From the UHGV virus genome UHGV-1773351: a stretch of DNA of 15,158 nucleotides; one strand, 5' to 3'. Numbering within the stretch: position 1 is the first letter of the stretch; each line of letters opens with the position of its first letter. The translations under genes and the position numbers were made by a program. The DNA comes from a virus. Below the pieces are notes generated by a model. It was not told where the DNA came from. It did no database searches and was given only the letters and a program-made list of their open reading frames with translations. Shown one piece after another: positions 1-15,158 of this stretch.

Positions 1-95
1 AAATAAGTCCAGTCTGGTGCGGCCAGATCACCCGCCGTTAGCTCCACGAAACGGAGCACGTAAAAGGTAAGAGCATTCTCCTGTAACGGGTTCAT
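1..95 (-). CDS. hypothetical protein, N-terminal part only (gene runs off the window start)
   Basis: My own translation of the minus strand: ATG at complement of 93-95, then MNPLQENALTFYVLRFVELTAGDLAAPDWTY with no stop before the window edge. In-frame stop upstream at complement of 183-185. No strong Shine-Dalgarno. Not in the ORF track because it is truncated. Confidence 0.3.
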   Translation of the reverse strand, partial: MNPLQENALTFYVLRFVELTAGDLAAPDWTY

Positions 96-286
96 ATCCC
101 AATCTACAGGTCCACCAAGAATGCTCTTTCCGTTGCGGTGAATGCGGCTAAGCGCACGCGGGGAAATGGTTATATCTGTCCATTATTTCTCCTTGTTTCC
201 ACGTCCACGGTGGATAACCAGCCAAAGGACACCGGGAGGAACCCGGCACCGCAGCTTTTTTATTCGTTAAATAATGGAGTGAGAGG

Positions 287-523
287 ATGCAGAACAATCC
301 GAACAAATGTCGAACGCTATGGGTGCGGTTATATATTTATGCCGTCCTCTGTTTGATTGTGTCACTGGTTCTGTATGTTTGGCTTTTGCCAAATATGATC
401 TCATCTAACAGCACAATACTTGTATTGTTGGGAGTCCTTCTCGCGCTCATTTACCCGGCTTTCGCAGTAGTCTTTTTTCGTGAAAAAACCAGGAAATTAA
501 TTAATGAAAAAAACGTTGATTAG
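287..523 (+). CDS. small membrane protein (78 aa, two hydrophobic helices), probable partner of the downstream SPFH lipoprotein
   Basis: ORF with GGAG 7 nt upstream of ATG 287. Two hydrophobic stretches (YIYAVLCLIVSLVLYVWLL and ILVLLGVLLALIYPAFAVVFF). 3' end overlaps the next gene by 20 nt, suggesting coupling. Confidence 0.4.
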   Translation: MQNNPNKCRTLWVRLYIYAVLCLIVSLVLYVWLLPNMISSNSTILVLLGVLLALIYPAFAVVFFREKTRKLINEKNVD

Positions 524-1331
524 TGCAGCGATTATTTTGGGTTCTTTATGTCTGACCGGATGCGATCGGGTAGAGCCAGGTAACGTAGGGATCAAAGTAA
601 ATAAGCTGGGGGATGATAAAGGTATCGGTGAAGTAGTTGGCGTTGGTCGCTACTGGACAGGCTTGAATACTGAAGTTTATATCTTCCCGACCTTTAAGCA
701 AATGAAGACATACGATGAGCCGTTCAGCTTCCAGATGAGCGACGGAACAACCATTGGTTACCACATCGGCGTAGCCTACAAGGTTGATCCAGCAAAAGTC
801 ACAACGGTATTTCAGACCTATCGCAAAGGTGTAGATGATATTACTGATACCGATCTACGCCAGAAGGTTGCAGATGCTCTGAACCGATTAGCCAGCAAAA
901 TGACCACCGACAAATTTATCGACGGTGGCAAATCTGAATTGCTTGATGCAGCCCTTAAAGACATTCAGGAAGAAATGACGCCAATCGGCATTCAGGTGAT
1001 GAGCCTCTCTTATGTAGGTAAGCCAGAATACCCGCCAACAGTTATTGACAGTATTAACGCCAAAGTCACGGCAAACCAAAAAACCCTGCAACGCGAGCAA
1101 GAGGTCAAACAACGTGAAGCAGAGGCCAACATGCTGCGCGCGGAAGCTGCCGGACAGGCTGATGCTATTCGCACAAAAGCCCAGGCCGAAGCTGATGCCA
1201 TTCGTTTACGTGGTGAAGCTCTGCGCCAGAACCCCGGTGTTATGGACTTGGAAGCGATCAACAAATGGAACGGTACATTACCGCAGTATATGACCAGTAA
1301 TACCGCTGTTCCGTTTGTTCCGGTGAAATAA
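504..1331 (+). CDS. SPFH/band-7 (HflK/C-flotillin-like) family lipoprotein
   Basis: Signal peptide with lipobox (MKKTLISAAIILGSLCLTGC). AGGAA upstream of the ATG. Central SPFH-like region followed by an Ala/Glu/Arg-rich coiled coil (EAEANMLRAEAAGQADAIRTKAQAEADAIRLRGEA). Confidence 0.75.
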   Translation: MKKTLISAAIILGSLCLTGCDRVEPGNVGIKVNKLGDDKGIGEVVGVGRYWTGLNTEVYIFPTFKQMKTYDEPFSFQMSDGTTIGYHIGVAYKVDPAKVTTVFQTYRKGVDDITDTDLRQKVADALNRLASKMTTDKFIDGGKSELLDAALKDIQEEMTPIGIQVMSLSYVGKPEYPPTVIDSINAKVTANQKTLQREQEVKQREAEANMLRAEAAGQADAIRTKAQAEADAIRLRGEALRQNPGVMDLEAINKWNGTLPQYMTSNTAVPFVPVK

Positions 1332-1358
1332 AAGCGTAAGCAAAATTGGCAGTAATCC

Positions 1359-1434
1359 GGCCCTTTAGCTCAGTGGTTAGAGCTGGCGACTCATAATCGC
1401 ACGGTCACCGGTTCAAGTCCGGTAGGGGCCACCA
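1359..1434 (+). tRNA. tRNA with CAU anticodon; overall closest to tRNA-Ile2 (lysidine type, ileX-like), not elongator or initiator tRNA-Met
   Basis: 76-nt cloverleaf folded by hand: 7-bp acceptor stem GGCCCTT/AGGGGCC (one G-U), D arm GCTC-AGTGGTTA-GAGC, anticodon loop CTCATAA (CAT at 1392-1394), T arm ACCGG-TTCAAGT-CCGGT, encoded CCA. D-loop, C4/C5 acceptor pairs and anticodon stem GGCGA match the E. coli ileX pattern as I recall it. Confidence 0.85.
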
Positions 1435-1714
1435 TATTTGGTTGTAACACGGCGTCTGGCACATGCGTCGTTAGCGGTCTGGTGACGTTAAAGGGGTAAC
1501 CTTTCCCCTAGCTCAGGCAACAAACCAGGTAGCCGGAATGTGCAAGCCCCGTTCATAGCGTCGGACTGCGGATTCACCATCTTGGCGATTCGGTGTGACA
1601 GCCGGGAAGAGTCCGGCGAATTAATCCTGATTTTCTGGTGATGACTCATATCGTTAGGAGTGATTTGAGTATGGCGATTATATCTGACATTCAGCACGCC
1701 TGGGTGGAGTGCTA

Positions 1715-3079
1715 ATGTCTGCATCCCCTCTTGAATCCATGCCAAATTCCCTTAGTGCAGAACAAGCTGTACTTGGTGGCTTAATGCTTGATAACTGCCG
1801 CTGGGATGAAGTTGCAGATCGTATAGTTGCTGATGATTTTTATACCAGTGCTCATCGTGAAATTTTCAGTGAGATGGAGAGGTTATTAAGTCATGGCAAA
1901 CCGATTGATTTGATAACACTTGCTGAAGCACTTGAACAGAACGGTAAATTAGAACGCGCCGGTGGTTTTGCGTACCTTGCGGAGATGTCAAAGAACACGC
2001 CCAGCGCGGCAAATATTTGTGCTTATGCGGATATCGTTCGTGAACGCGCGGTTGTTCGTGAAATGATTTCCGTCGCAAATGAAATAGCCGAAGCTGGATA
2101 TGCGCAGGATGGCAGGGGCAGCAATGAATTGCTGGATATGGCCGAGCGCCGCGTTTTTGAAATAGCTGAAAAACGACAAAAGAGCGGTAGTGGTCCAAAA
2201 GATATCGCCAGCATTCTCGATGCAACGGTATCTCGCATAGAAGAGTTGTTTCAGCGACCGCATGATGGTGTAACGGGGCTTGATACCGGATTTACCGATC
2301 TCAATAAGAAGACGGCAGGACTTCAGGCGTCCGATCTCATTATTGTCGCCGCCCGCCCATCGATGGGGAAGACTACGTTTGCGATGAATCTCGTCGAAAA
2401 TGCCGCAGTCCGTAACGATAAGCCCGTATTGGTTTTTAGCCTTGAGATGCCGAGCCACCAGCTGATGATGCGCTCACTGGCTTCTCTTGCACGCGTTGAT
2501 CAGACTCGTATTCGAACAGGGCAACTTAACGACGAGGATTGGGCGCGGGTTTCTGGCGCAATGGGGATTCTGTTGGACAAGCAGAATATTTTTATTGATG
2601 ACTCAAGCGCCCTGACACCTACAGAGCTTCGTTCCCGCGCTCGTCGTGTTTATAAAGAAAATGGTGGTTTGAGCATGATTATGATCGACTACCTGCAACT
2701 TATGCGCGTCCCCGAGCTGCAAGATAACCGAACGCTGGAAATTGCCGAGATTTCTCGCTCACTGAAGGCTTTGGCGAAGGAATTACAAGTACCGGTGGTG
2801 GCATTGTCACAACTTAATCGATCGCTTGAACAGCGTGCGGACAAACGACCGGTAAATTCAGATTTACGTGAATCAGGAGCAATTGAGCAGGACGCAGACC
2901 TGATCATGTTTCTGTATCGCGACGAAGTTTATCACCCGGATAGCGAAATGAAGGGCATTGCCGAGGTGATTATCGGTAAGCAACGAAATGGCCCAATTGG
3001 CACGGTGAGATTGGCTTTTAACGGCCAATACTCACGGTTTGATAACTATGCTGGTGCTGACTGGCAAGAGGATTATTAA
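1715..3079 (+). CDS. dnaB: DnaB-family replicative DNA helicase (phage-borne paralog, P1 Ban-like)
   Basis: Near-collinear similarity to E. coli DnaB over the whole length, including the Walker A segment AARPSMGKTTFAMNLVENAA and LRESGAIEQDADLIMFLYRDEVYH. ATG 1715 has GGAG 5 nt upstream; an in-frame GTG at 1709 is the ORF-track start. Confidence 0.93.
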   Translation: MSASPLESMPNSLSAEQAVLGGLMLDNCRWDEVADRIVADDFYTSAHREIFSEMERLLSHGKPIDLITLAEALEQNGKLERAGGFAYLAEMSKNTPSAANICAYADIVRERAVVREMISVANEIAEAGYAQDGRGSNELLDMAERRVFEIAEKRQKSGSGPKDIASILDATVSRIEELFQRPHDGVTGLDTGFTDLNKKTAGLQASDLIIVAARPSMGKTTFAMNLVENAAVRNDKPVLVFSLEMPSHQLMMRSLASLARVDQTRIRTGQLNDEDWARVSGAMGILLDKQNIFIDDSSALTPTELRSRARRVYKENGGLSMIMIDYLQLMRVPELQDNRTLEIAEISRSLKALAKELQVPVVALSQLNRSLEQRADKRPVNSDLRESGAIEQDADLIMFLYRDEVYHPDSEMKGIAEVIIGKQRNGPIGTVRLAFNGQYSRFDNYAGADWQEDY

Positions 3080-4077
3080 TGCAATGGAATGAGGAAAAGC
3101 CGATGAACATCCTGATCATTGGGCGAAAATTTGAAGCTATCAGTGATGTGAAAACATATACGGAAATGTGGGCTTACAACCTGGCCTGCGCCTTTAGTGA
3201 GGCTGGGGTAACATTGCAATACCATCGTCCATATTCCCCCGGCGTCGAAAGCCCGGAGGATTATGTTGAAGCTGTGTTGACTGCTGCGACCGCATGTTCT
3301 GCGAAGGCCATTTTGGCACCAGGATTGAGGTATTTTACTACGGTGCCCAGGGAAATAGGCGTGCAACTGCGTCGTCGATTCACTGGATGGGTAGCCCAGG
3401 TATACGACGGTTCTATGCTGGATTCGGCACCAGTCGATATTACTTTTACTGTCCGCGATGATACCTGGCGGTACCTGGATAATCCAGGCAGGTTAGAGCG
3501 TCATAATCGCTTTAACAAACATGTTGGATGGGCAGCGAATCAGGATCTGTTCCATCTGGAAACCAAAACAGACGATGTTCTGCGTATTTTTGTAGACCAC
3601 GCTGCATTTGATGTTAGTGGGTTTGATCACTCCTTAAGTATCCTTATGAACCTTCAGCGTCTGACCGTTCCGTATGAGGCCAGAACGTTGACCGATGACG
3701 GATTGATTACCATTGATCCGGGGAATATATCGGTAACCCCATACAGACGGACGCCGGTACCAGCAACCGAATTTGCAGCTGAATTGCGTAAGAGTGACGT
3801 GTTTATCGTTACGCATCCCGAAAGCCTTGGATTAACTGTACTTGAGGCGGCAATGTGCGGGGCGTTGGTATTAACGCCTCCCGATTGCCTTCCGCCAGAT
3901 CGCTTGGCTTTGGTGAACCATATGGTTATCAAGTCGCGGATTGATTGGGATGAGGTTATTGCTCGCGTTGATCGCGTGAAAAATGCTGAAAAGGTCCAGT
4001 GTCACACCTGGTCGGCAATTGCGGAAAAGATGCTTGAGACGTTTATCACGCAGAAACCGTCGTGCGGTAACGGATAA
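3079..4077 (+). CDS. GT-B fold (GT4-like) glycosyltransferase-like protein, in the position of P1 dbn
   Basis: ATG 3079 overlaps the helicase stop (TAATG). Alternative ATG 3103 has an ideal GAGGA 7 nt upstream and gives an N-terminus MNILIIG typical of GT-B enzymes. C-terminal motif HPESLGLTVLEAAMCGALVLTP matches the E-x7-E motif of GT4-type transferases. Confidence 0.6.
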   Translation: MQWNEEKPMNILIIGRKFEAISDVKTYTEMWAYNLACAFSEAGVTLQYHRPYSPGVESPEDYVEAVLTAATACSAKAILAPGLRYFTTVPREIGVQLRRRFTGWVAQVYDGSMLDSAPVDITFTVRDDTWRYLDNPGRLERHNRFNKHVGWAANQDLFHLETKTDDVLRIFVDHAAFDVSGFDHSLSILMNLQRLTVPYEARTLTDDGLITIDPGNISVTPYRRTPVPATEFAAELRKSDVFIVTHPESLGLTVLEAAMCGALVLTPPDCLPPDRLALVNHMVIKSRIDWDEVIARVDRVKNAEKVQCHTWSAIAEKMLETFITQKPSCGNG

Positions 4078-4123: not shown

Positions 4124-7234
<3,111 letters not shown>

Positions 7235-8452
7235 TTATCCTTTCCGTTTACGGGCTTCGTTAATTTGTGTCTCAAGAATGCTTCGCGCCTGCGCGGTGGC
7301 AGCGGCCTTGTCCATTCCCTGACTCATGAAAAACTTTATGAGGTTGTTCGCCTGCGTTTGCAGGGCTTTTTTGAGAGCGTCGGCTTCAGCGCGAGCTTGG
7401 GCTTCCCTCACCCGCGATGCTTTTAGTTCGGCATTCTTCCTGTTTGCCGTGGTGCGAGCTTTTTTTAACAACCGGCGAACGTTGTCCGTGGCGCTATCTT
7501 TGGCGCGTAGTTTTTTGCCTAATGCATCCTGAGATTTCAGATATAACTCATACTCACGCGCCGCTTTAGCCTGATCCGTCGTTGTTGTCCGGTTGCGCGC
7601 GAGTGATTTAGCCAGTTCGCCTTTGAAATAGGTTGTTGTCTTCCGCTTGTCATCGCCGAAGGCCACCTGTTCAGCTGCTTTTTCCAGGGCAATAATGATG
7701 GCCTTGTGCCATGTGGGAGACTGAAAACGCGTCATAGCGTGCAATACATGTTTGCAGGCTACACCAGTCAGATCAGGGTTGCGGATCTTGGGGAATGCAT
7801 ACTCTTTTGGCGGCGCGACAGCATAGTTACCAGCCGTGGCCATATAACGATACCAGTATTGATGGCGTCCACAATCACAGTCGAAAGATACCCGGCCCTT
7901 GCAGAGATCGGCAGCGATTCGGGCTTTTTTCGCACCGTCTTCAGCAATTTCCTCAACGGCTTTATCCCATTCCTCAAATCGAATTCTGACACGATGATGC
8001 TGGTGGACCGACTCATCCGAGGCATTAACAGATATCAATGCAAGGTTGTGTTTTAGCCCGAGGAATGTCGCGGCTTTGATCCCTGTGCCATCAGAAACTT
8101 TGTTGTTAGCGCGTTTTATATCAATGCTGGTGGACTGCGCCACCAGCTGAGCATAGGTAATGCCGGGTACCGTGCTCTTGAATTTGGTTTTATGAGCCTG
8201 CCTTGAGGTGTTGAAACTGCGTATATCTTCGGGCGTAAAGTAGGTGCCATCTTTCTTTTTCCCAAGGCTGAGGAATGCCTCAAGTTCGCGGTTACGCATC
8301 CCCATAATCTTTGGGGTGAGTGTACGCCGCGCGTTTCGCCGATTCTGACGCTGCTGTTTACGGATAAGATCGAAGACCTTGTTAAAGTCTTTTGCACTTA
8401 ATCCATCGGTCTGATAGCGACCAAGGTTGTCGCGAGCATATTTAGTTGGCAT
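7235..8452 (-). CDS. basic, coiled-coil-rich protein with a SWIM-like zinc-finger motif (405 aa)
   Basis: AAGGGA 5-6 nt upstream of the ATG. Lys/Arg-rich N- and C-terminal regions. Central FDCDCGRHQYWY ... VACKHVLHA gives a CxC-xn-CxH arrangement. Confidence 0.7.
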   Translation of the reverse strand: MPTKYARDNLGRYQTDGLSAKDFNKVFDLIRKQQRQNRRNARRTLTPKIMGMRNRELEAFLSLGKKKDGTYFTPEDIRSFNTSRQAHKTKFKSTVPGITYAQLVAQSTSIDIKRANNKVSDGTGIKAATFLGLKHNLALISVNASDESVHQHHRVRIRFEEWDKAVEEIAEDGAKKARIAADLCKGRVSFDCDCGRHQYWYRYMATAGNYAVAPPKEYAFPKIRNPDLTGVACKHVLHAMTRFQSPTWHKAIIIALEKAAEQVAFGDDKRKTTTYFKGELAKSLARNRTTTTDQAKAAREYELYLKSQDALGKKLRAKDSATDNVRRLLKKARTTANRKNAELKASRVREAQARAEADALKKALQTQANNLIKFFMSQGMDKAAATAQARSILETQINEARKRKG

Positions 8453-8839: not shown

Positions 8840-8912
8840 AGTCAGCCTGCCAGAAATATATGATGGTGATTCTACTGCTAGTCATTTGTTGAATATTTAA
8901 CTTAATAAAAGA

Positions 8913-8929
8913 AAATTATTAGTGCAATT
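8913..8929 (-). promoter_or_regulatory. C1-operator-like 17-mer (ATTGCACTAATAATTTT on the minus strand) in the divergent control region
   Basis: 15 of 17 matches to the recalled P1 C1 operator consensus. Lies between the divergent operons starting at 8839 (minus) and 8986 (plus). Confidence 0.4.
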
Positions 8930-8985
8930 CACATTGTGAAATGTATCATTCTGCCATTAAGTAGGTTCTTCACGAGGAAACAAAA

Positions 8986-9231
8986 TTGGCAGAACGTGTT
9001 GATGATGCAGAGCTGAGCATGAATCAGTTAGAAGCTCTCAAAGACATGGCCATCGATAACATCAGAAAGCAGGCACAGGTCGTGAGCCAGGTATTTACAG
9101 GGAAGTGTCGTTACTGCAATGAATCGATTGAATCAGGCATTTATTGTGACGCTGAATGTGCGCAATGGCACAGGGAAGAGCAGGCCGCAAAACAGCGTAA
9201 ATATGGCATGCGACCGGCAGGATTTGACTGA
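8986..9231 (+). CDS. small C4 zinc-ribbon protein (DksA/TraR-like cysteine arrangement) with an N-terminal helical segment
   Basis: TTG start with GAGGA 7 nt upstream; an internal ATG (MNQLEALK) is an alternative. Cysteine motif CRYCNESIESGIYCDAEC. Confidence 0.6.
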   Translation: MAERVDDAELSMNQLEALKDMAIDNIRKQAQVVSQVFTGKCRYCNESIESGIYCDAECAQWHREEQAAKQRKYGMRPAGFD

Positions 9232-9233
9232 TT

Positions 9234-9812
9234 ATGTTGCGCTTTACTGAGGAAGAGTTTCAGGCTTTTAGTGAGCGTCGAAATAAGGGGCGGTCCAGGC
9301 CAAAAACCAAAAAGGATCCATTCTTATCGCTTGCGCCGGTAAAAGAAGTTTCTCCACATGCGAAGGCACTTGCAGCACTGGCAAAGAACCCAGACCTGCG
9401 CGACGGAAATTGCGAGCACTTCGAGCAGGTTTTCATTTTTGATTACTTCGAACGCAAGCACCCTGACATCTATGAGCTGTTGCATGCAACGCCTAACGGA
9501 GGGAAACGTTCAAAAGCAACCGCCGGGAAAATGAAGGCTGAAGGGCAGAAAAAAGGTTATCCGGACATGAGTCTCGATAAAGCATGCGGTATTTATCACG
9601 GCATGCGAATTGAGCTTAAAGAACCAAATGGTAAAGCCCCGACGAAAGAGCAGATCGCCTGGATGCGCAGGCTTAGAGAGGAAGGTTACTACGTCGTTCT
9701 TGCGTATGGTGCAGAACAAGCGATAACCGCCATCCTGGAATACATGAGCCTTAAAAAGGGTGAGGCTATTGAGCATGTATTGAACGGTGACAAGTGTTTG
9801 TACGCTACGTGA
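9234..9812 (+). CDS. VRR-NUC domain nuclease (PD-(D/E)xK superfamily)
   Basis: C-terminal region GYPDMSLDKACGIYHGMRIELKEPNGKAPTKEQIAWMRRLREEGYYVVLAYG matches the VRR-NUC pattern (Asp, then E-x-K, then a helix and beta strand). Start lies 2 nt after the previous stop. Confidence 0.7.
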   Translation: MLRFTEEEFQAFSERRNKGRSRPKTKKDPFLSLAPVKEVSPHAKALAALAKNPDLRDGNCEHFEQVFIFDYFERKHPDIYELLHATPNGGKRSKATAGKMKAEGQKKGYPDMSLDKACGIYHGMRIELKEPNGKAPTKEQIAWMRRLREEGYYVVLAYGAEQAITAILEYMSLKKGEAIEHVLNGDKCLYAT

Positions 9813-9879
9813 AATAATAAATTAATTAGTGCATATGTGTATCTTTGATACAGCGCACATTAACATCGGGAGAATAATC

Positions 9880-10035
9880 GTGTCATCCAAGGCTAATTAT
9901 GAATCGCTGGCATCGATCATGCCGCGTAATGAACAGGAAGCAGATGCTGTAGTGGACCCGGTAATCGCTGAAATGAATGCTCGCCTGGAGGCTGAATTTG
10001 CAGCTGAGAATGAACATACCACCCAGGGCGACTAG
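9880..10035 (+). CDS. small hypothetical protein (about 51 aa from GTG 9880)
   Basis: GGGAGA 7 nt upstream of GTG 9880. The ORF-track start at 9829 is a GTG with no Shine-Dalgarno in an AT-rich spacer. Confidence 0.35.
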   Translation: MSSKANYESLASIMPRNEQEADAVVDPVIAEMNARLEAEFAAENEHTTQGD

Positions 10036-10639
10036 GACTGTTTTTTGTGTCGGTAGCGGTCCGTCACTCACTCGTGAGGACTGTGCTGCTATAGAAAAAA
10101 CTGGCTGTTCAATCATCGCGGTTAACAATTCCTGGCAGATGTTCGATGACATTTATGCCTTATACGCCGGTGATTTGTCATGGTGGAAGCAATACGGATC
10201 CACCATACCGGGAGGGAGATTCCGCAAAGTGACAGCCAACCTGGCGGCGGCGAAATCATTTTCGTTGGAGTACAGGCGATATTGTGGACCGGCTGAAGGG
10301 GTTAATAGCGGCGCGCAGGCTATCAGTCTGGCGGCTGAATCAGGGGCTGAAGTAGTTGTATTAGTCGGCTATGACTGTTCTCTGCAAAACGGCCTTCATT
10401 GGCATGGAGCACACCCTCAAGCACTACGGAATCCAACGCAGGTGTCTATTTCAAAATGGCAACAGCAGTTCCTGGATACCCGCAAAAAACACGCAGATTT
10501 ACATATTTTGAATGCAAGTAGGAGCAGTGCAATTCAATGTTTCCCAAGAATAAATTTAGAGGCAGTGATCGCGTTATTATCGTCGGCAGTGGCCCAAGCG
10601 CCGCAAACTTTGTTGCGCCGCGCGGAGTGCCGATTATAG
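10010..10639 (+). CDS. GT42/DUF115-like (Cst-II sialyltransferase / Maf / MptE-like) putative CMP-sugar transferase, paralog A
   Basis: N-terminal VFCVGSGPSL, then IIAVNNSWQMFDD and NSGAQAISLAAESGAEVVVLVGYD, collinear with Cst-II motifs as I recall them. Start chosen at ATG 10010 to give the same N-terminal length as paralog B; the ORF-track start is 9977. Confidence 0.5.
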   Translation: MNIPPRATRTVFCVGSGPSLTREDCAAIEKTGCSIIAVNNSWQMFDDIYALYAGDLSWWKQYGSTIPGGRFRKVTANLAAAKSFSLEYRRYCGPAEGVNSGAQAISLAAESGAEVVVLVGYDCSLQNGLHWHGAHPQALRNPTQVSISKWQQQFLDTRKKHADLHILNASRSSAIQCFPRINLEAVIALLSSAVAQAPQTLLRRAECRL

Positions 10640-11163
10640 CGGTCAATGGGGCCATAGACTGGCTTAACCGCGCTTCTTATTTTTTCACCCTTGATCCATC
10701 GCCAGACAATATGCGGCGCGTTGGTCGTGGCCGCCGTCGCCGTGGTGTTTGTTATTGCATGGCGCTACCCGATGTTAAAGAACGTGAGGTCAGAGACGGC
10801 GTTCTGTGCTTCCGTCGTGTGGCTGAGCGCGGCACGGAGCCAAAAAATACGAATTCTCCCGAGTGGTGGGCGTGGCGCTGGTCCGCACATTTCGGCCTTT
10901 GCGAAGATGAGAATGAAATTGCCAGCGGCAATAGTGCATATGGTGCTCTGAACCTGGCTTTCCATATCGGATTCAAACATGTCGCCCTGGTGGGCGTTGA
11001 CGCTACACAAGAACCACGCGTTCACTCCGGCGGCACGCCAAAAAATCTAAGTCACCTGCCTTTGTTATTCCAGTCTGCGCGTGAACAGATTGACGTTGTT
11101 TCATGCGGGAAAATGGGAGGTATTCCGCAGATGACTCTTAAAGAATGGCTGAAGAATACATGA
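10537..11163 (+). CDS. GT42/DUF115-like putative CMP-sugar transferase, paralog B
   Basis: [21 protein letters not shown] and [24 protein letters not shown] parallel paralog A. AGGAG lies about 12 nt upstream of the ATG. Overlaps paralog A by 103 nt in another frame. Confidence 0.55.
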
Positions 11164-11837
11164 TGGCACCAACAATTTATCACCGTATCGACGGTACCAA
11201 ATACAGGAATATCTGGGTTGTTGGTGATCTGCATGGTTGCTACAACAGACTGATGTCCGAACTCCATCGTGTGGATTTTGACCCGGCGCAGGATTTACTG
11301 ATATCGGTCGGCGACCTTATCGATCGCGGTACTGAAAATGTCGAATGTCTGGAACTATTGCAGATGCCCTGGTTCAGGGCAGTGATGGGGAACCATGAGC
11401 GGCTGATGATTGATGCGTTAAGTCCAGATGGCAACGTGAATAACTGGCTAATGAATGGCGGACAATGGTTCTTCATGCTGGACACTGATCAGGAAATATT
11501 AGCTAGGGCGCTGGTGGAGCTGGTAAAGCGTCTGCCCTATATCATTGAGTTGAACACCGGGCAAGAAACTATCGTTATAGCCCATGCCGACTATCCGGAT
11601 AATGAATACCAATTCGGTAAGGAGGTGCCGCTTTTCAACGTTGTCTGGGCGCGCGAGCGTATCAGTGATTCGATGGATGATATTGGTGGCGAAATTTCGG
11701 GCGCAGATCGTTTTATCTTTGGTCACACTCCGGTGAAAAGCCCGAAGACATTCTGGAATCAGCATTATATCGATACTGGTGCCGTATTTTGCGGAAACCT
11801 GACATTGATGAAAGTGAAAGGTGATGGTGCAGCATGA
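11145..11837 (+). CDS. Ser/Thr protein phosphatase, lambda PPase (PPP) family
   Basis: Canonical PPP motifs GDLHGCY, GDLIDRG and GNHE, plus near-collinear similarity to lambda phosphatase ([12 protein letters not shown] ... [13 protein letters not shown]). ATG 11160 overlaps the upstream stop in an ATGA arrangement and is an equally plausible start. Confidence 0.85.
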
Positions 11838-12535
11838 AGATTGCTTTAGTTCTTCGCTCTGGTGGTGACTATAACGCTTCCGATGTGCAGTGGCTGGTTA
11901 ATCAACTGCCAAAAGGCTATGAAATTATTTGCCTGACAGACCTGAAGCGTTTACATGTACCTGGCGTCAAAGTTGTCCCATTGATCAACCAGTGGCAAAA
12001 GTGCCGTGGCTGGTGGGCGAAAATCGAGTTGTTCCGACCGGATATAACCGATGATCTGTTCTATCTGGATTTGGACACGGTTATTGCCGGTGATATACGC
12101 CCAATCCTTGAGAATCCACCAACCAGCTTCACCATGCTTAGGGATTTTTACCATCCACAATATCGTGGTAGCGGTGCCCTGTGGATACCAAATAGTGTAA
12201 AAGCGCATATCTGGAGTTCATTCTGGCAAGATCCGGAAGGTTGGATTGCTCGTTGTGTTACTACTGAATGCTGGGGTGATCAGGGGTTTTTGCGGAAGGT
12301 TATGGGTGATGATACACCAGCATTTCAGGATCTGTATCCGGGATGGTTTGTAAGTTACAAGGCCGATGTTGTGGAACCTGGTTCGAAATATGCGAGCGCG
12401 CGTTACTCCAGGGGGAATGGGGCATTACCAAAAGACTGCCGAATAATCTTTTTCCACGGCAAACCGCGACCTCGCGAAGTGTCAGAGGATTGGCTTCCCC
12501 TTATTAGCTCGTTTTTTGAGCGAGAATCAGAATAA
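11834..12535 (+). CDS. hypothetical protein, possible GT-A fold nucleotide-sugar transferase (DxD-like motif)
   Basis: ATG overlaps the phosphatase stop (ATGA). The motif [19 protein letters not shown] resembles the DxD region of GT-A transferases; this is a motif-level guess only. Confidence 0.55.
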
Positions 12536-12536
12536 T

Positions 12537-12553
12537 ATTGCTCTAATAATTCC
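12537..12553 (+). promoter_or_regulatory. C1-operator-like 17-mer (ATTGCTCTAATAATTCC) overlapping a sigma70-like promoter
   Basis: 14 of 17 matches to the recalled consensus. Part of a conserved 30-bp module (ATTGCTCTAATAA-N6-ATTTTTAAAAC) repeated at 14678; within it TTGCTC and TAAAAC are spaced 17 nt apart. Confidence 0.45.
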
Positions 12554-12561
12554 ATATTTTT

Positions 12562-12591
12562 AAAACGTGATGTACACTCATCACGTTTTTT
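12562..12591 (+). terminator. rho-independent terminator after the 11834-12535 gene
   Basis: 11-bp perfect stem AAAACGTGATG/CATCACGTTTT with loop TACACT, followed by a T6 run. Confidence 0.7.
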
Positions 12592-12602
12592 ATTAGAGCA
12601 AT
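12586..12602 (-). promoter_or_regulatory. C1-operator-like 17-mer in inverted orientation (ATTGCTCTAATAAAAAA on the minus strand)
   Basis: 14 of 17 matches. Inverted partner of the 12537-12553 site, giving a roughly 66-bp palindromic unit around the terminator hairpin. Confidence 0.4.
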
Positions 12603-12616
12603 CTATAAGGTGCACT

Positions 12617-12835
12617 ATGTGGCCATTCCGACGGAAATATCACTACTGGCTGATCGCCTTTGTTACGCCGACCGGCGGTATCAGGCATGTCATCACCAGG
12701 TATCGCAACAAGAGACTCTCCTTAGCCAGAATTTTACAGGCTGCCATAGGTGAGGGACTGGATACAAATTGCGTAGTCCTTCCACCTTCATATTTAGGAA
12801 AAATGACCGAAGCACAAGCTAATACGGAACTTTGA
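12617..12835 (+). CDS. small basic hypothetical protein (72 aa), possibly coupled to the downstream gene
   Basis: GGTG 5 nt upstream of the ATG. Its stop TGA lies 1 nt before ATG 12837. Composition is not strongly protein-like, so weak. Confidence 0.3.
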   Translation: MWPFRRKYHYWLIAFVTPTGGIRHVITRYRNKRLSLARILQAAIGEGLDTNCVVLPPSYLGKMTEAQANTEL

Positions 12836-12836
12836 A

Positions 12837-14099
12837 ATGAGCACTTCAGCACAAAACCAATCAATCGAAAATGTATCTATCCCTGACGTCCTTAATGCCG
12901 GTATCCCGGCCATTATCCAGAACATCCGGGCCGCGCAACGCCGCGTTAGTTGTGATGACCTCACAGCACGTTTTTTTGATAATGCGGTTCAGTCAGCGGA
13001 GATGCTTCACGCACAGCTTATTGATGTTTATAACGCAGAAGCTGATAGCCATAACTCCCTGGTAGATGCAGCTGAAAATATGCAGTTGGATCTCGGTCTG
13101 AAGGGTAAAGAAATTGAAGAGCTTCAGCTGCAAATTGAACATTTGAAACGCCAGCAACAGGACGCGATCGACGATGCGACGCATGACGCCAACCAGCGTG
13201 CTGATAATGCCGAACGTATAAGCATTGAGCTGGAAACAAAACTCAATGAAATGACCGCGATGGTTGAACTGCAGAACTCACAGATTTCAACGCTAAAATC
13301 TCAATATAAAGAGATCATGAAACTTGATCCTTTTAACCTTGAGAAACGCTATAACAAAGCTAAAAGCGAGCGACAGGAACTGCGTAAGCAGGTCGCCGAC
13401 CTTAACCAACAGCTCAAAAAAACTATTAAAGATGCAAGCGAAGCGCGCGTGGCATTTGCTAATAAAAAAGCAGAGGTTACCGCGCTGGTTAATGAGAATG
13501 CCAAATTTACGACGCTCAAGAAGGAAATGTATGGCATTACTGAGCGCCGTTTCCCTGCAAGCAAACTTCATCCGACGTTAGGGCAAATCTCCTTCTTCCC
13601 GCGCCTCTTGGCTTATGGGATCTCATCGCCTAAAGAGTTCAATAACGAGCGTCCTTATATCGTGTCTAAGCTGGACTTTGCTTATCAGTTCTGCTGCGAC
13701 ATGGGCTATGCCATTGATATCCGAATCAACGAATGGTTGATGCCAAACTTCCAGCCGTTGGCAATTTTCCGCGAGTTCCAGCCGGAAGGTTGGGTAGAGT
13801 TCTTCCATGAATTGATCTGTAAAGAGATGGAAAGCCGCCGCCCGGAATTGGTCCGTCGAGTTGAGTGGGCGCAAGAGGTTATGTTGGCAGATGCAGAGCT
13901 GCCGTTCGAACCGGAATTCATTGATGATCTGGCAACTAAAGGGTTGCATACCCTGTTTGATGTGGTTACCCGCCGTCATGAGCAGTTGGTTGTCGAATTG
14001 GGTTTAGAGGAAACAGCGGCAAGAAGACTTCTCGATGTTTGCTATGCACGTAGCGATGCATGGGAAAAAGAGAACGGAGGCACTATTTACGTCCGCTGA
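12837..14099 (+). CDS. hypothetical protein (420 aa): N-terminal coiled-coil plus C-terminal globular domain
   Basis: Long ORF. Residues ~60-230 are heptad-like and charged (EELQLQIEHLKRQQQDAIDD ... RQELRKQVADLNQQLKK). C-terminal 190 aa is aromatic/Cys-containing with no motif I recognise. Confidence 0.7.
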   Translation: MSTSAQNQSIENVSIPDVLNAGIPAIIQNIRAAQRRVSCDDLTARFFDNAVQSAEMLHAQLIDVYNAEADSHNSLVDAAENMQLDLGLKGKEIEELQLQIEHLKRQQQDAIDDATHDANQRADNAERISIELETKLNEMTAMVELQNSQISTLKSQYKEIMKLDPFNLEKRYNKAKSERQELRKQVADLNQQLKKTIKDASEARVAFANKKAEVTALVNENAKFTTLKKEMYGITERRFPASKLHPTLGQISFFPRLLAYGISSPKEFNNERPYIVSKLDFAYQFCCDMGYAIDIRINEWLMPNFQPLAIFREFQPEGWVEFFHELICKEMESRRPELVRRVEWAQEVMLADAELPFEPEFIDDLATKGLHTLFDVVTRRHEQLVVELGLEETAARRLLDVCYARSDAWEKENGGTIYVR

Positions 14100-14118
14100 T
14101 AGTTACAGTGTCACTTTT

Positions 14119-14152
14119 AATGCTGGTGGAGTGCGCCCACCAGCATTTTTTT
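14119..14152 (+). terminator. rho-independent terminator after the 420-aa gene
   Basis: 11-bp stem AATGCTGGTGG/CCACCAGCATT with loop AGTGCGC, followed by a T7 run. Confidence 0.75.
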
Positions 14153-14171
14153 CGTCCAATGAGGAGGGCAT

Positions 14172-14678
14172 TTGAGTATTTTCAATAAACATGCACACCA
14201 GGAACGTCCGTATATCGTCATAGTCGATATTGATGGAACAATATCAAAGGCAACTGAAGACAGACTGCATTTGCTTCCGCCACCAGGTAAAGGTGCATTA
14301 ACAAAGGACTGGAACGAGTTTAATCTCGCCTGTGACACCGATACTCCCATCACTCCAGTTATTGATATGGTGCGCCAGTTATTTAACGTTTACACGGTCT
14401 GGTTTGTAACCGGGCGCTGTGAGATCGCAAGGGATAAAACACGAGCCTGGCTGCGGAAGTACGTAACAAACGGGGCTGAGCCTTTGCTATCTATGCGTCC
14501 TGCCACCGATGACAGAAATGACGGCCCAGCAAAGATTGATCTCCTTAAGAAAATTGGTCTAAGTAAAATCGCGTTCGCGCTGGAAGATAAGATTGAAGTG
14601 GCGCGTGTTTTCAGGAGGCACGGCGTGCTTACGTTAATGGTCAGGGAGTATGAAAATGCGCTTCTTCACCAACAATAA
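14172..14678 (+). CDS. HAD-superfamily phosphatase (DxDGT motif; resembles polynucleotide 3'-phosphatase / nucleotidase-type domains)
   Basis: TTG start with a strong GAGGAGG 5 nt upstream. Motif I IVIVDIDGT and motif II-like WFVTGRCE. Confidence 0.7.
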   Translation: MSIFNKHAHQERPYIVIVDIDGTISKATEDRLHLLPPPGKGALTKDWNEFNLACDTDTPITPVIDMVRQLFNVYTVWFVTGRCEIARDKTRAWLRKYVTNGAEPLLSMRPATDDRNDGPAKIDLLKKIGLSKIAFALEDKIEVARVFRRHGVLTLMVREYENALLHQQ

Positions 14679-14707
14679 TTGCTCTAATAAATCTTGATTT
14701 TTAAAAC
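14678..14707 (+). promoter_or_regulatory. C1-operator-like 17-mer (ATTGCTCTAATAAATCT) with overlapping sigma70-like promoter; second copy of the 30-bp module
   Basis: 16 of 17 matches to the recalled consensus. Same 30-bp module as at 12537 (13 + 11 identical positions, same spacing). Confidence 0.5.
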
Positions 14708-14776
14708 AGGGAAAGTGAAAATAAAAACATGCCGCAAGGCGCGGCATGTATCCAATCAATCACAGGAGCTGAAAAT

Positions 14777-14863
14777 ATGAACACGGCATTCAAAATCATT
14801 ATGGCCGCGATCTATTTCTGGCTGTTCTCTATCACTTTTGGCGGCATCGTCGCTCATGGGTAA
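14777..14863 (+). CDS. small hydrophobic peptide (28 aa, MNTAFKIIMAAIYFWLFSITFGGIVAHG), single predicted transmembrane helix
   Basis: AGGAG 8 nt upstream of the ATG. Sits downstream of the operator/promoter module and a perfect 8-bp hairpin (14728-14748). Too short for the ORF track; found by reading the sequence. Confidence 0.4.
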   Translation: MNTAFKIIMAAIYFWLFSITFGGIVAHG

Positions 14864-14942
14864 GGGGAGTATATTAGCCATTTGGAACCCCACGGTCTCT
14901 TGCGGGTTTAATTAAGAACCCGCAAGAAAAACACGAATTGGG

Positions 14943-15158
14943 CTATATTTTTCCGCCTACGCCTTTAAACTTCTCAATAAACGAGACGATTTTCTGGAAA
15001 ACTGCCTGTTTTTTCTTTTTATATTGCGGATTCAACGGACTAAGTTTTGGTAATGTTTCGTTTAATTCTGTGCCATTTTCGGTGGCATATTCGCGTTTTA
15101 AAGACGTGCGAATATAGCGTTTTGCTGCATCTTCATTGAGATTTTCTTCTTTTATCAA
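14943..15158 (-). CDS. hypothetical protein, C-terminal part only (gene starts beyond the window end)
   Basis: Minus-strand ORF open to the window edge, stop at complement of 14943-14945. The M at the edge in the ORF track is a TTG artifact. Confidence 0.4.

What the first reader, a model, noticed from the sequence alone, without database searches (positions are those of the whole stretch)
8913..14707. Family of P1 C1-operator-like 17-mers marking operon boundaries
Five sites resemble ATTGCTCTAATAAATTT: 14678-14694 (16/17), 8913-8929 minus (15/17), 12537-12553 (14/17), 12586-12602 minus (14/17) and 9819-9835 minus (13/17). All are intergenic and at operon starts or ends. Two are embedded in an identical 30-bp module with a plausible -35/-10 pair. 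This points to P1-type immunity and means the adjacent cargo genes are probably repressed in the lysogen.
Basis: partly seen in the sequence, partly recalled or inferred. Interest (0 to 1): 0.6.

Follow-up and report, generated by a model that had tools for sequence, protein, structure and literature searches.

The report
Known phage P1 C1 repressor operators

Summary
The window is about 98% identical to phage P1 (AF234172 69947-84482). A weight matrix built only from ten other P1 operators ranks these five as the top five hits (17.7-25.7 bits; the next hit is 12.6). Chance expectation is 0.02 such hits per window. Operator-like sites sit at the same syntenic places in two diverged lineages (proteins 52-81% identical). 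The Op86a/b pair keeps its exact 49-nt spacing. Replicons carrying this segment encode C1 (98.9% identical in a close plasmid, 76% in Cronobacter phage JK004). Three corrections apply. The "identical" 30-bp module is 26/30. The flanking genes are conserved backbone, not cargo. The true cargo next to Op88, a type IC hsdR, points against its promoter. Minor extras are an unannotated conserved small ORF after Op88 and a conserved terminator-like hairpin between Op86a and Op86b.

The parts
8912..8928 (-). C1 operator O26 (former Op82), ATTGCACTAATAATTTT, 15/17. It lies in the divergent gene 26 / pmgL control region and overlaps the predicted P2pmgL -10 (8911-8916) and P1pmgL -35 (8922-8927). It sits just downstream of the late promoter LPpmgL (-10 at 8892-8897).
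   Evidence: Identical to the annotated P1 operator. PWM 24.7 bits. 63 of 68 close relatives are identical, and operator columns vary 0.006 against 0.042 in the flanks.
9819..9835 (-). C1 operator Oppp (former Op83), TATGCACTAATTAATTT, 13/17. It lies between pmgM and pmgN, 13 nt downstream of the predicted PpmgN -10 (9801-9806).
   Evidence: Same position as the annotated P1 operator, with 1 nt different at position 1 (T against C). PWM 18.1 bits. A site in the same position and orientation exists in JK004 (12.7 bits) and in Salmonella plasmids (18.1 bits).
12537..12553 (+). C1 operator OpmgRa (former Op86a), ATTGCTCTAATAATTCC, 14/17. Its TTGCTC (12538-12543) is the -35 of the predicted PpmgR, whose -10 TAAAAC is at 12561-12566.
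   Evidence: Identical to P1. PWM 19.0 bits. 78 of 80 relatives are identical. 15 of 17 columns are invariant across three lineages.
12563..12590 (+). Terminator-like hairpin (AAAACGTGATG / TACACT / CATCACGTTTT, then TT) between OpmgRa and OpmgRb. Its T tract is the 3' end of OpmgRb read on the + strand.
   Evidence: RNA fold gives -13.4 kcal/mol, with the same fold in JK004 (-14.0). All 33 of 33 cells pair in three lineages, with 2 compensatory pairs and 3 one-sided changes. This is not significant with only 3 sequences: 59 of 500 shuffles did as well. It is not annotated in the P1 record.
12586..12602 (-). C1 operator OpmgRb (former Op86b), ATTGCTCTAATAAAAAA, 14/17. It is inverted relative to OpmgRa, start-to-start 49 nt, and ends 14 nt before the pmgR start codon (12617).
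   Evidence: Identical to P1. PWM 17.7 bits. 78 of 80 relatives are identical. 16 of 17 columns are invariant, and the 49-nt spacing is the same in JK004 and in Salmonella plasmids.
14678..14694 (+). C1 operator OpmgT (former Op88), ATTGCTCTAATAAATCT, 16/17. It overlaps the predicted promoters P2pmgT (-35 at 14679-14684, -10 at 14702-14707) and P1pmgT (-35 at 14694-14699, -10 at 14717-14722).
   Evidence: Identical to P1 Op88. PWM 25.7 bits. A 16/17 site is at the same place in JK004 and in Salmonella plasmids, the latter lacking pap.
14727..14749 (.). G+C-rich hairpin in the leader between OpmgT and the small ORF. Read on the - strand it is a terminator-like element (followed by TTTTATTTTC) downstream of hsdR.
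   Evidence: Terminator scan. A hairpin at the same position but with a different sequence exists in JK004 and in the Salmonella lineage.
14777..14863 (+). Unannotated 28-codon hydrophobic ORF (MNTAFKIIMAAIYFWLFSITFGGIVAHG) with an AGGAG ribosome-binding site. It is the first reading frame downstream of the OpmgT promoters.
   Evidence: It is intact in 72 of the 80 close relatives searched. Homologous N-termini are found in JK004 (53 aa) and in a Salmonella plasmid (46 aa). It is not annotated in AF234172, NC_005856 or a PGAP-annotated plasmid. It matches no Pfam or PHROG family.

Best explanation
The five 17-mers are operators of the phage P1 primary immunity repressor C1, in a P1-like phage-plasmid. 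C1 is encoded elsewhere on the replicon (immC region). It binds each asymmetric 17-bp site. Where a site overlaps or lies just downstream of a sigma-70 promoter, bound C1 blocks RNA polymerase. This would keep four early transcription units silent in the plasmid prophage: pmgL-pmgM; pmgN-pmgO-pmgP-ppp-pmgQ; pmgR-pmgS-pap; and the unit starting after Op88. The co-repressor Lxc tightens binding, and the antirepressors Coi and Ant release it. What is shown here is sequence identity and positional orthology to the annotated P1 operators, strong statistical excess, conservation in position across three lineages, and co-occurrence with c1, coi and lxc. What is inferred from established P1 knowledge and the record's annotation is actual C1 occupancy at each site, the activity of the predicted promoters, and repression of these operons in the lysogen.
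For: The window is 98.2% identical to P1 AF234172 69947-84482. That record annotates 'phage repressor C1' binding sites O26/Op82, Oppp/Op83, OpmgRa/Op86a, OpmgRb/Op86b and OpmgT/Op88 at exactly the homologous positions. Four are identical in sequence and one differs by 1 nt. The consensus ATTGCTCTAATAAATTT and 22 operators per P1 genome are stated in PMC8546580. The leave-out PWM ranks the five as the top five, against 0.02 expected per window. The full-length relative CP099239.1 has C1 (98.9%), Coi (97%), Lxc (100%) and 20 operator-like sites of at least 15 bits. All P1-like phage records carry c1, including JK004 at 76%. In 80 close relatives, four of the five operators vary 2 to 25 times less than their +-100-nt flanks. 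In JK004 and in Salmonella plasmids (proteins 52-81% identical), sites occur at the same intergenic positions. The Ra/Rb spacing of 49 nt is the same, and 15/17 and 16/17 operator columns are invariant in an otherwise diverged spacer.
Against: The window itself contains no c1, and its own replicon was not found (best matches 98.4-98.5%). The cognate repressor is therefore inferred from relatives. The promoters that the operators are supposed to control are only 'predicted' in the P1 record. A generic sigma-70 consensus scan did not pick up PpmgR, P1pmgT or P2pmgT, and it found fewer promoter-like sites than shuffles (4 against 10.1). OpmgT varies about as much as its flanks among close relatives (0.027 against 0.033). 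Taken singly, the three weakest sites score within reach of the null maximum (16, 28 and 38 of 500 simulated windows in the first PWM run). The site upstream of pmgL has the opposite orientation and a different neighbour in the two diverged lineages. I could not read the primary binding studies, because Lobocka 2004 is not held and a search on the operator names found nothing relevant.
Confidence: 0.95

Rival explanations
1. The repeated 17-mers are conserved because they are promoter elements (a TTGCTC -35 plus an A/T-rich spacer) of a family of duplicated promoter modules, not because a repressor binds them.
For: The operator's positions 2-7 serve as the -35 hexamer of the predicted PpmgR and P2pmgT. 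Two modules share 26/30 nt including the putative -10. A T-run at positions 19-25 follows 9 of 20 operators in the relative, against 4% in A/T-rich control windows.
Against: Conservation covers 15-16 of the 17 positions across lineages, far more than a -35 hexamer needs. OpmgRb and Oppp are oriented away from the downstream genes and lie downstream of the predicted -10 elements. The putative -10 TAAAAC is not kept in JK004 (TGAAGC), while the operator is. The same 17-mer occurs about 20 times on a replicon that encodes C1. P1 literature reports C1 binding to these operator sequences (PMC8546580).
Confidence: 0.03
2. Only the strong sites (Op82, Op88, perhaps Op86a) are functional operators. 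Op83 and Op86b are degenerate relics or chance A/T-rich matches with no regulatory role.
For: Op83 and Op86b have 4 and 3 mismatches and the lowest PWM scores (18.1 and 17.7 bits). Their JK004 counterparts score only 12.7 and 12.9 bits. Neither overlaps a -35 element.
Against: Both are annotated operators in P1. Op86b is the least variable of the five among 80 relatives (0.0007 against 0.018 in its flanks). It has 16 of 17 columns invariant across three lineages and an exact 49-nt spacing to Op86a. Part of that conservation could instead be due to the overlapping hairpin and T tract. Op83 is retained in position and orientation in all three lineages.
Confidence: 0.15
3. The matches are chance occurrences of an A/T-rich word in A/T-rich intergenic DNA.
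For: Intergenic DNA here is A/T-rich and the consensus is 76% A/T.
Against: 0 of 200 dinucleotide shuffles reached 4 matches. 0 of 1000 Markov sequences had 5 hits at the PWM threshold. The sites are identical to annotated P1 operators and are conserved across lineages.
Confidence: 0.005

Closest known systems
C1-controlled operators of bacteriophage P1 (Op82/O26, Op83/Oppp, Op86a,b/OpmgRa,b, Op88/OpmgT; GenBank AF234172 and NC_005856, Lobocka et al. 2004)
   Same: Same 17-bp asymmetric sequence, same genomic positions, same flanking genes and same predicted promoters. Four of the five sites are identical and one differs by a single base.
   Different: Position 1 of Op83 is T here and C in P1, and the predicted PpmgN -10 is TACGCT here against TATGCT in P1. 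Downstream of Op88, this element carries a convergent type IC hsdR in place of pmgT-pmgV.
P1-like phage-plasmids (Punavirus; P7, RCS47, SJ46, IncY/p0111 plasmids)
   Same: 98% nucleotide identity over the window. More than 400 plasmids and 18 phage records cover at least 80% of it. c1 is present in the phage records.
   Different: No record is identical to the window (best 98.4%). The left end (SPFH gene instead of tciABC) and the right end (hsdR instead of pmgT) fall in the known variable regions 7 and 8 of this group (PMC9603915).
Lambda-type CI/operator immunity
   Same: A prophage repressor occludes early promoters and is countered during induction.
   Different: C1 sites are asymmetric 17-mers dispersed over the whole genome (22 in P1), rather than palindromic sites clustered at one immunity region. 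Control is tripartite, with Lxc, Coi, and Ant/c4 (PMC8546580). P1 C1 matches no Pfam family.

Membership tests
P1 C1-controlled operators | Asymmetric 17-bp sequence matching ATTGCTCTAATAAATTT | tested here: met
   13-16 of 17 matches. The five are the top five hits of a PWM trained on ten independent P1 operators, at 17.7-25.7 bits against 12.6 for the next hit. The consensus is confirmed in PMC8546580.
P1 C1-controlled operators | Positional orthology to the catalogued P1 operators Op82, Op83, Op86a, Op86b and Op88 | tested here: met
   Each site maps onto a 'protein_bind: phage repressor C1' feature of AF234172. Four are identical and one differs by 1 nt.
P1 C1-controlled operators | Cognate C1 repressor (with Coi and Lxc) encoded by replicons that carry this segment | tested here: met
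   CP099239.1 (98.4% identical over the whole window) encodes C1 at 98.9%, Coi at 97% and Lxc at 100%. All P1-like phage records with this segment carry c1, and JK004 carries it at 76%.
P1 C1-controlled operators | C1 repressor encoded on this window's own replicon | not testable with these tools
   The window is 15 kb and has no c1 (tblastn). No identical contig was found in the phage, plasmid, E. coli or IMG/VR collections.
P1 C1-controlled operators | Physical binding by C1 protein (footprint or EMSA) | not testable with these tools
   This needs an experiment. The P1 record cites earlier deposits that define Op88 (M25414, X98146) and Op82 (X87824). From memory, Citron, Velleman and Schuster 1989 showed C1 binding to Op88. 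I could not read those papers.
P1 C1-controlled operators | Overlap with, or position just downstream of, a promoter, so that binding can repress transcription | tested here: inconclusive
   All five overlap or abut promoters predicted in the P1 record, and the hexamers are preserved in the window. Those promoters are only predictions, and a generic consensus scan did not find them.
P1 C1-controlled operators | Conservation of the sites at the same positions in related elements | tested here: met
   80 close relatives and two diverged lineages, JK004 and Salmonella plasmids, have sites at the syntenic positions with the same 49-nt Ra/Rb spacing. The site upstream of pmgL has a different orientation in the diverged lineages.

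The most novel reading that the evidence does not exclude
The operators themselves are not new, but three unannotated features travel with them, and one or more may be a functional, undescribed part of P1-type early control. First, the pmgQ-pmgR spacer is a composite of two inverted C1 operators flanking an intrinsic-terminator-like hairpin. The hairpin's T tract is the end of Op86b, and its 5' arm contains the predicted -10. Read-through from the ppp operon would therefore terminate there, while PpmgR transcripts, which start inside the stem, would escape. Second, Op88 controls a conserved leader hairpin plus a small hydrophobic ORF (28 aa here, 46-53 aa in diverged lineages). These sit at the edge of the main cargo hot-spot and are also found beside type IC hsd loci. 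Third, in elements like this one, the C1-repressed Op88 promoter points antisense into hsdR, so loss of C1 might damp restriction during lytic growth or on entry into a new host.
Probability: 0.2. Interest if true: 0.35.

Novelty: already known. Interest (0 to 1): 0.08.

Why it matters
It matters mainly as a correct annotation. It tells a scanner that this window belongs to a P1-type phage-plasmid under C1 immunity, and that the pmgL-pap block is organised as C1-gated early units. P1-like phage-plasmids are common carriers of resistance and defence genes in Enterobacteriaceae, with more than 1000 matching plasmid records. Knowing which insertion hot-spots lie behind C1-repressed promoters helps predict whether cargo is expressed in the lysogen. 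Here the cargo next to Op88, a type IC hsdR, is oriented against that promoter, so it is not under C1 control by simple read-through. No open question is resolved.

Tried and rejected
(1) Reading Lobocka et al. 2004 (PMC523184): the paper is not held. (2) A full-text search for Op82, Op86, Op88, Op72 and Op99 returned only irrelevant hits. (3) The P1vir transcriptome paper PMC8201110 does not mention the pmg, ppp or pap genes, so it gives no expression evidence. (4) I looked for the window's own replicon in phages, plasmids, E. coli genomes and 80 IMG/VR loci. The best match was 98.4-98.5%, with none identical. (5) A scan of species-representative genomes with a PmgS alignment gave only two close E. 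coli relatives and no extra divergence. (6) A possible sixth site at 3069-3085 (-) (ATTGCATTAATAATCCT, 12.6 bits, at the ban/dbn junction) is rejected. Its score equals the mean null maximum, it is coding, and it is not annotated in P1. (7) My first PWM included Omat on its annotated strand, which matches the consensus at only 6/17. The opposite strand matches at 13/17, and the PWM was rebuilt. (8) The second copy of the hairpin-like repeat (12952-12976, inside pmgS) folds weakly (-8.2) and is treated as chance. (9) The small ORF was scanned against Pfam and PHROGs with no significant family. (10) A promoter-like site on the - strand at 9841-9814, with Op83 filling its spacer, is not conserved in JK004 or Salmonella and is within chance expectation for the scan.


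Full report
WHAT THE WINDOW IS. A megablast of the whole window against phage records shows 98.2-98.4% identity over 91-98% of its length to phage P1 and its close relatives (P1 AF234172 69947-84482, RCS47, P7, SJ46). More than 400 plasmid records and 425 complete E. coli genomes hold at least 80% of it. None is identical (best 98.4%), so the exact source replicon is not in these collections. It is also not among 80 IMG/VR contigs fetched through PmgS (best about 98.5%). The window runs from upstream of ban through dbn, the tail and baseplate genes 5-6-24-7-25-26, pmgL-pmgM, pmgN-pmgO-pmgP-ppp-pmgQ, and pmgR-pmgS-pap.

CHECK OF THE OBSERVATION. The five sites exist with the stated match counts. 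Four coordinates are exact, and the site given as 8913-8929 is really 8912-8928. A search with up to 3 mismatches found 4 matches against 0.07 expected, and 0 of 200 dinucleotide shuffles reached 4. To avoid circularity I built a weight matrix only from ten P1 operators that lie outside this region: Obana, Obanb, Oc1a-e, Oref, Ossb and Omat. In the window the five sites are the five best hits on either strand (25.7, 24.7, 19.0, 18.1, 17.7 bits). The sixth hit drops to 12.6 bits, which is the average best score of random sequence. Among 1000 first-order Markov sequences, the mean number of hits at or above 17.7 bits was 0.020, and none had five. The 'identical 30-bp module' is 26/30 identical (12537-12566 against 14678-14707). 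All five sites are intergenic, and OpmgT begins on the last base of the pap stop codon.

WHAT THEY ARE. The original P1 record (AF234172, and also NC_005856) annotates 'protein_bind: phage repressor C1' features at exactly the homologous positions:
- O26, former Op82
- Oppp, former Op83
- OpmgRa and OpmgRb, former Op86a and Op86b
- OpmgT, former Op88
Four window sites are identical to P1. Op83 differs at position 1, with T here and C in P1. PMC8546580 states that 22 such operators are dispersed over the P1 genome. The -35 is TTGCTC inside the operator, followed by a 17-nt spacer and TAAAAC, and all hexamers are preserved in the window.

First, is there a c1 homolog on the replicon? The window has none, and its own replicon is unavailable. 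However, plasmid CP099239.1 covers 100% of the window at 98.4%. It encodes C1 (98.9% identical to P1 C1), Coi (97%) and Lxc (100%). Every P1-like phage record carrying this segment has c1. Second, what does a weight-matrix scan of a full replicon show? CP099239.1 has 20 sites of at least 15 bits. This is close to the 22 reported for P1, and they include the homologs of the five sites. Third, are the sites conserved in related elements? In 80 close relatives, operator columns differ from the window much less often than the +-100-nt flanks:
- Op82: 0.006 against 0.042
- Op83: 0.033 against 0.074
- Op86a: 0.0015 against 0.019
- Op86b: 0.0007 against 0.018
- Op88: 0.027 against 0.033, so no less variable than its flanks

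More telling are two diverged lineages: Cronobacter phage JK004, and Salmonella plasmids pCFSAN058588 and p21-SA00706-0. Their proteins in this block are only 52-81% identical to the window's, and JK004's C1 is 76% identical. Both lineages carry operator-like 17-mers at the same intergenic positions:
- After pmgQ there is an inverted pair with exactly the same 49-nt start-to-start spacing.
- After pap there is a single site. In the Salmonella plasmids, which lack pap, it sits after pmgS.
- After pmgM there is a site in the same orientation.
- Upstream of pmgL there is a site, but in the opposite orientation and with a different upstream neighbour.
In the three-lineage alignment of the pmgQ-pmgR spacer, 15/17 and 16/17 operator columns are invariant while the sequence beyond them has diverged.

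HOW IT MOST LIKELY WORKS. By established P1 biology (PMC8546580; annotation), C1 binds each asymmetric site. Lxc strengthens binding, and Coi and Ant antagonise C1. Placement in the window gives the following picture.
- Op82 covers the predicted P2pmgL -10 and P1pmgL -35. It lies a few bases downstream of the late promoter LPpmgL.
- Op83 lies about 13 nt downstream of the predicted PpmgN -10.
- Op86a supplies the -35 of PpmgR.
- Op86b lies between that promoter and the pmgR start codon.
- Op88 overlaps both predicted pmgT promoters.
Repression of the four early units in the lysogen is an inference; no expression or binding data could be retrieved. The promoters are only predictions, and a generic sigma-70 consensus scan did not recover them.

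CORRECTION ON 'CARGO'. The genes next to the operators are backbone. They are syntenic in three lineages, and pmgR and pmgS are among the 21 most conserved genes of P1-like phage-plasmids (PMC9603915). Most of them are non-essential for lytic growth in CRISPRi and deletion screens. The exceptions are pmgR, essential by deletion, and pmgN, essential by CRISPRi (PMC10695390). The window departs from P1 at both ends, in the 'highly variable regions' 7 (tciABC) and 8 (pmgT...humD) of that survey. An SPFH-domain gene (504-1331) replaces tciABC. From 14868 on, pmgT is replaced by the 3' end of a type IC hsdR on the opposite strand (14943-15158; PF12008 EcoR124_C, E = 9e-13). The break is exactly at P1 84482. 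That position is the edge of the homology to sequences downstream of the EcoDXXI and R124 hsd loci noted in the P1 record, a relationship described by Tyndall et al. 1997 (cited in PMC12707154). The hsdR cargo is convergent with the Op88 promoters, so it is not driven by them.

THINGS SEEN ALONG THE WAY. (a) Between Op86a and Op86b lies an 11-bp hairpin followed by a T tract (12563-12590, -13.4 kcal/mol). The T tract is the end of Op86b, and the A tract of the 5' arm contains the predicted -10. The fold is kept in JK004 and Salmonella, with 33/33 cells paired and two compensatory pairs. With three sequences this is only suggestive: 59 of 500 shuffles did as well. (b) Downstream of Op88 there is a leader hairpin (14727-14749), then AGGAG, then a 28-codon hydrophobic ORF (14777-14863). 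The ORF is present in 72 of 80 close relatives, and its N-terminus is conserved in 46-53-aa versions in the diverged lineages. It is not annotated in P1, in RefSeq P1 or in a PGAP-annotated plasmid, and it matches no Pfam or PHROG family. (c) In 9 of 20 operators of CP099239.1, a T-run follows at positions 19-25, against 4% in A/T-rich control windows (binomial P about 3e-8).

VERDICT. Interest is low. The residual novelty lies only in the small unannotated features around Op86 and Op88.

Noticed in passing
window 14868-15158 (ORF 14943-15158, - strand): Homology to P1 ends at 14867 (P1 84482). Beyond it lies the C-terminus of an EcoR124-type (type IC) HsdR (PF12008, E = 9e-13), convergent with the Op88 promoters and replacing pmgT-pmgV. 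18 of 80 IMG/VR relatives share this end. This matches the known link between type IC hsd loci and P1 DNA (Tyndall 1997, cited in PMC12707154) and 'variable region 8' of PMC9603915.
   Followed up: partly
window 14777-14863 (+): An unannotated 28-codon hydrophobic ORF (MNTAFKIIMAAIYFWLFSITFGGIVAHG) has a good AGGAG ribosome-binding site directly downstream of Op88. Its N-terminus is conserved in 53-aa (JK004, from L086 8443) and 46-aa (Salmonella L089) versions. It is absent from the P1, RefSeq P1 and PGAP annotations, and it has no Pfam or PHROG match.
   Followed up: partly
window 12563-12590 (+): A terminator-like hairpin with a T tract sits between the inverted operators Op86a and Op86b. 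The T tract is the end of Op86b, and the 5' arm contains the predicted PpmgR -10. The fold is preserved in JK004 and in Salmonella plasmids with two compensatory pairs (33/33 cells paired, but only 3 sequences). It is not annotated in the P1 record.
   Followed up: partly
window 14727-14749: A G+C-rich hairpin lies in the leader between Op88 and the small ORF. On the - strand it reads as a strong intrinsic terminator downstream of hsdR. A hairpin occupies the same position, with a different sequence, in JK004 (L086 about 8390-8411) and Salmonella (L089 about 5979-6000).
   Followed up: partly
CP099239.1 (L004/L005), 20 operator sites; window 12554-12566 and 14695-14707: Many C1 operators are followed, in register, by a T-run at positions 19-25 and then A-A (for example tgaTTTTTAaaac). 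This holds for 9 of 20 sites against 4% in A/T-rich control windows.
   Followed up: partly
window 9814-9841 (- strand): A promoter-like site (TACACA-16 nt-TATTAT) on the - strand has Op83 exactly filling its spacer. This is the same geometry as the C1-repressed P1coi/Oc1d promoter, and it would transcribe antisense to pmgM. It is not conserved in JK004 or in Salmonella plasmids, and it is within the chance expectation of the scan.
   Followed up: partly
window 1-1500 (ORF 504-1331 +; tRNA 1359-1434 +): The left end differs from P1. An SPFH-domain gene, also found in Stx phages and phage P88 at about 87% identity, replaces tciA-tciC ('variable region 7'). The CAT-anticodon tRNA upstream of ban is retained. 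No C1 operator-like site lies in this segment; the ban operator Op72 lies upstream of the window.
   Followed up: partly
L003 2628-2645 (AF234172 Omat): The operator Omat is annotated on the - strand and as 18 nt. It matches the C1 consensus only on the + strand (CATGCACTAATAAATAT, 13/17, against 6/17 on the annotated strand). This is probably a strand slip in the record.
   Followed up: yes
window 9801-9806: The predicted PpmgN -10 hexamer is TACGCT here, against TATGCT in P1. That is one step further from consensus, and it sits next to the one operator (Op83) that also differs from P1.
   Followed up: no
L002 935-1783 (P1 c1): The P1 C1 repressor (283 aa) matches no Pfam-A family at E <= 0.1, so it cannot be recognised by domain scans and has to be found by direct homology.
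   Followed up: no
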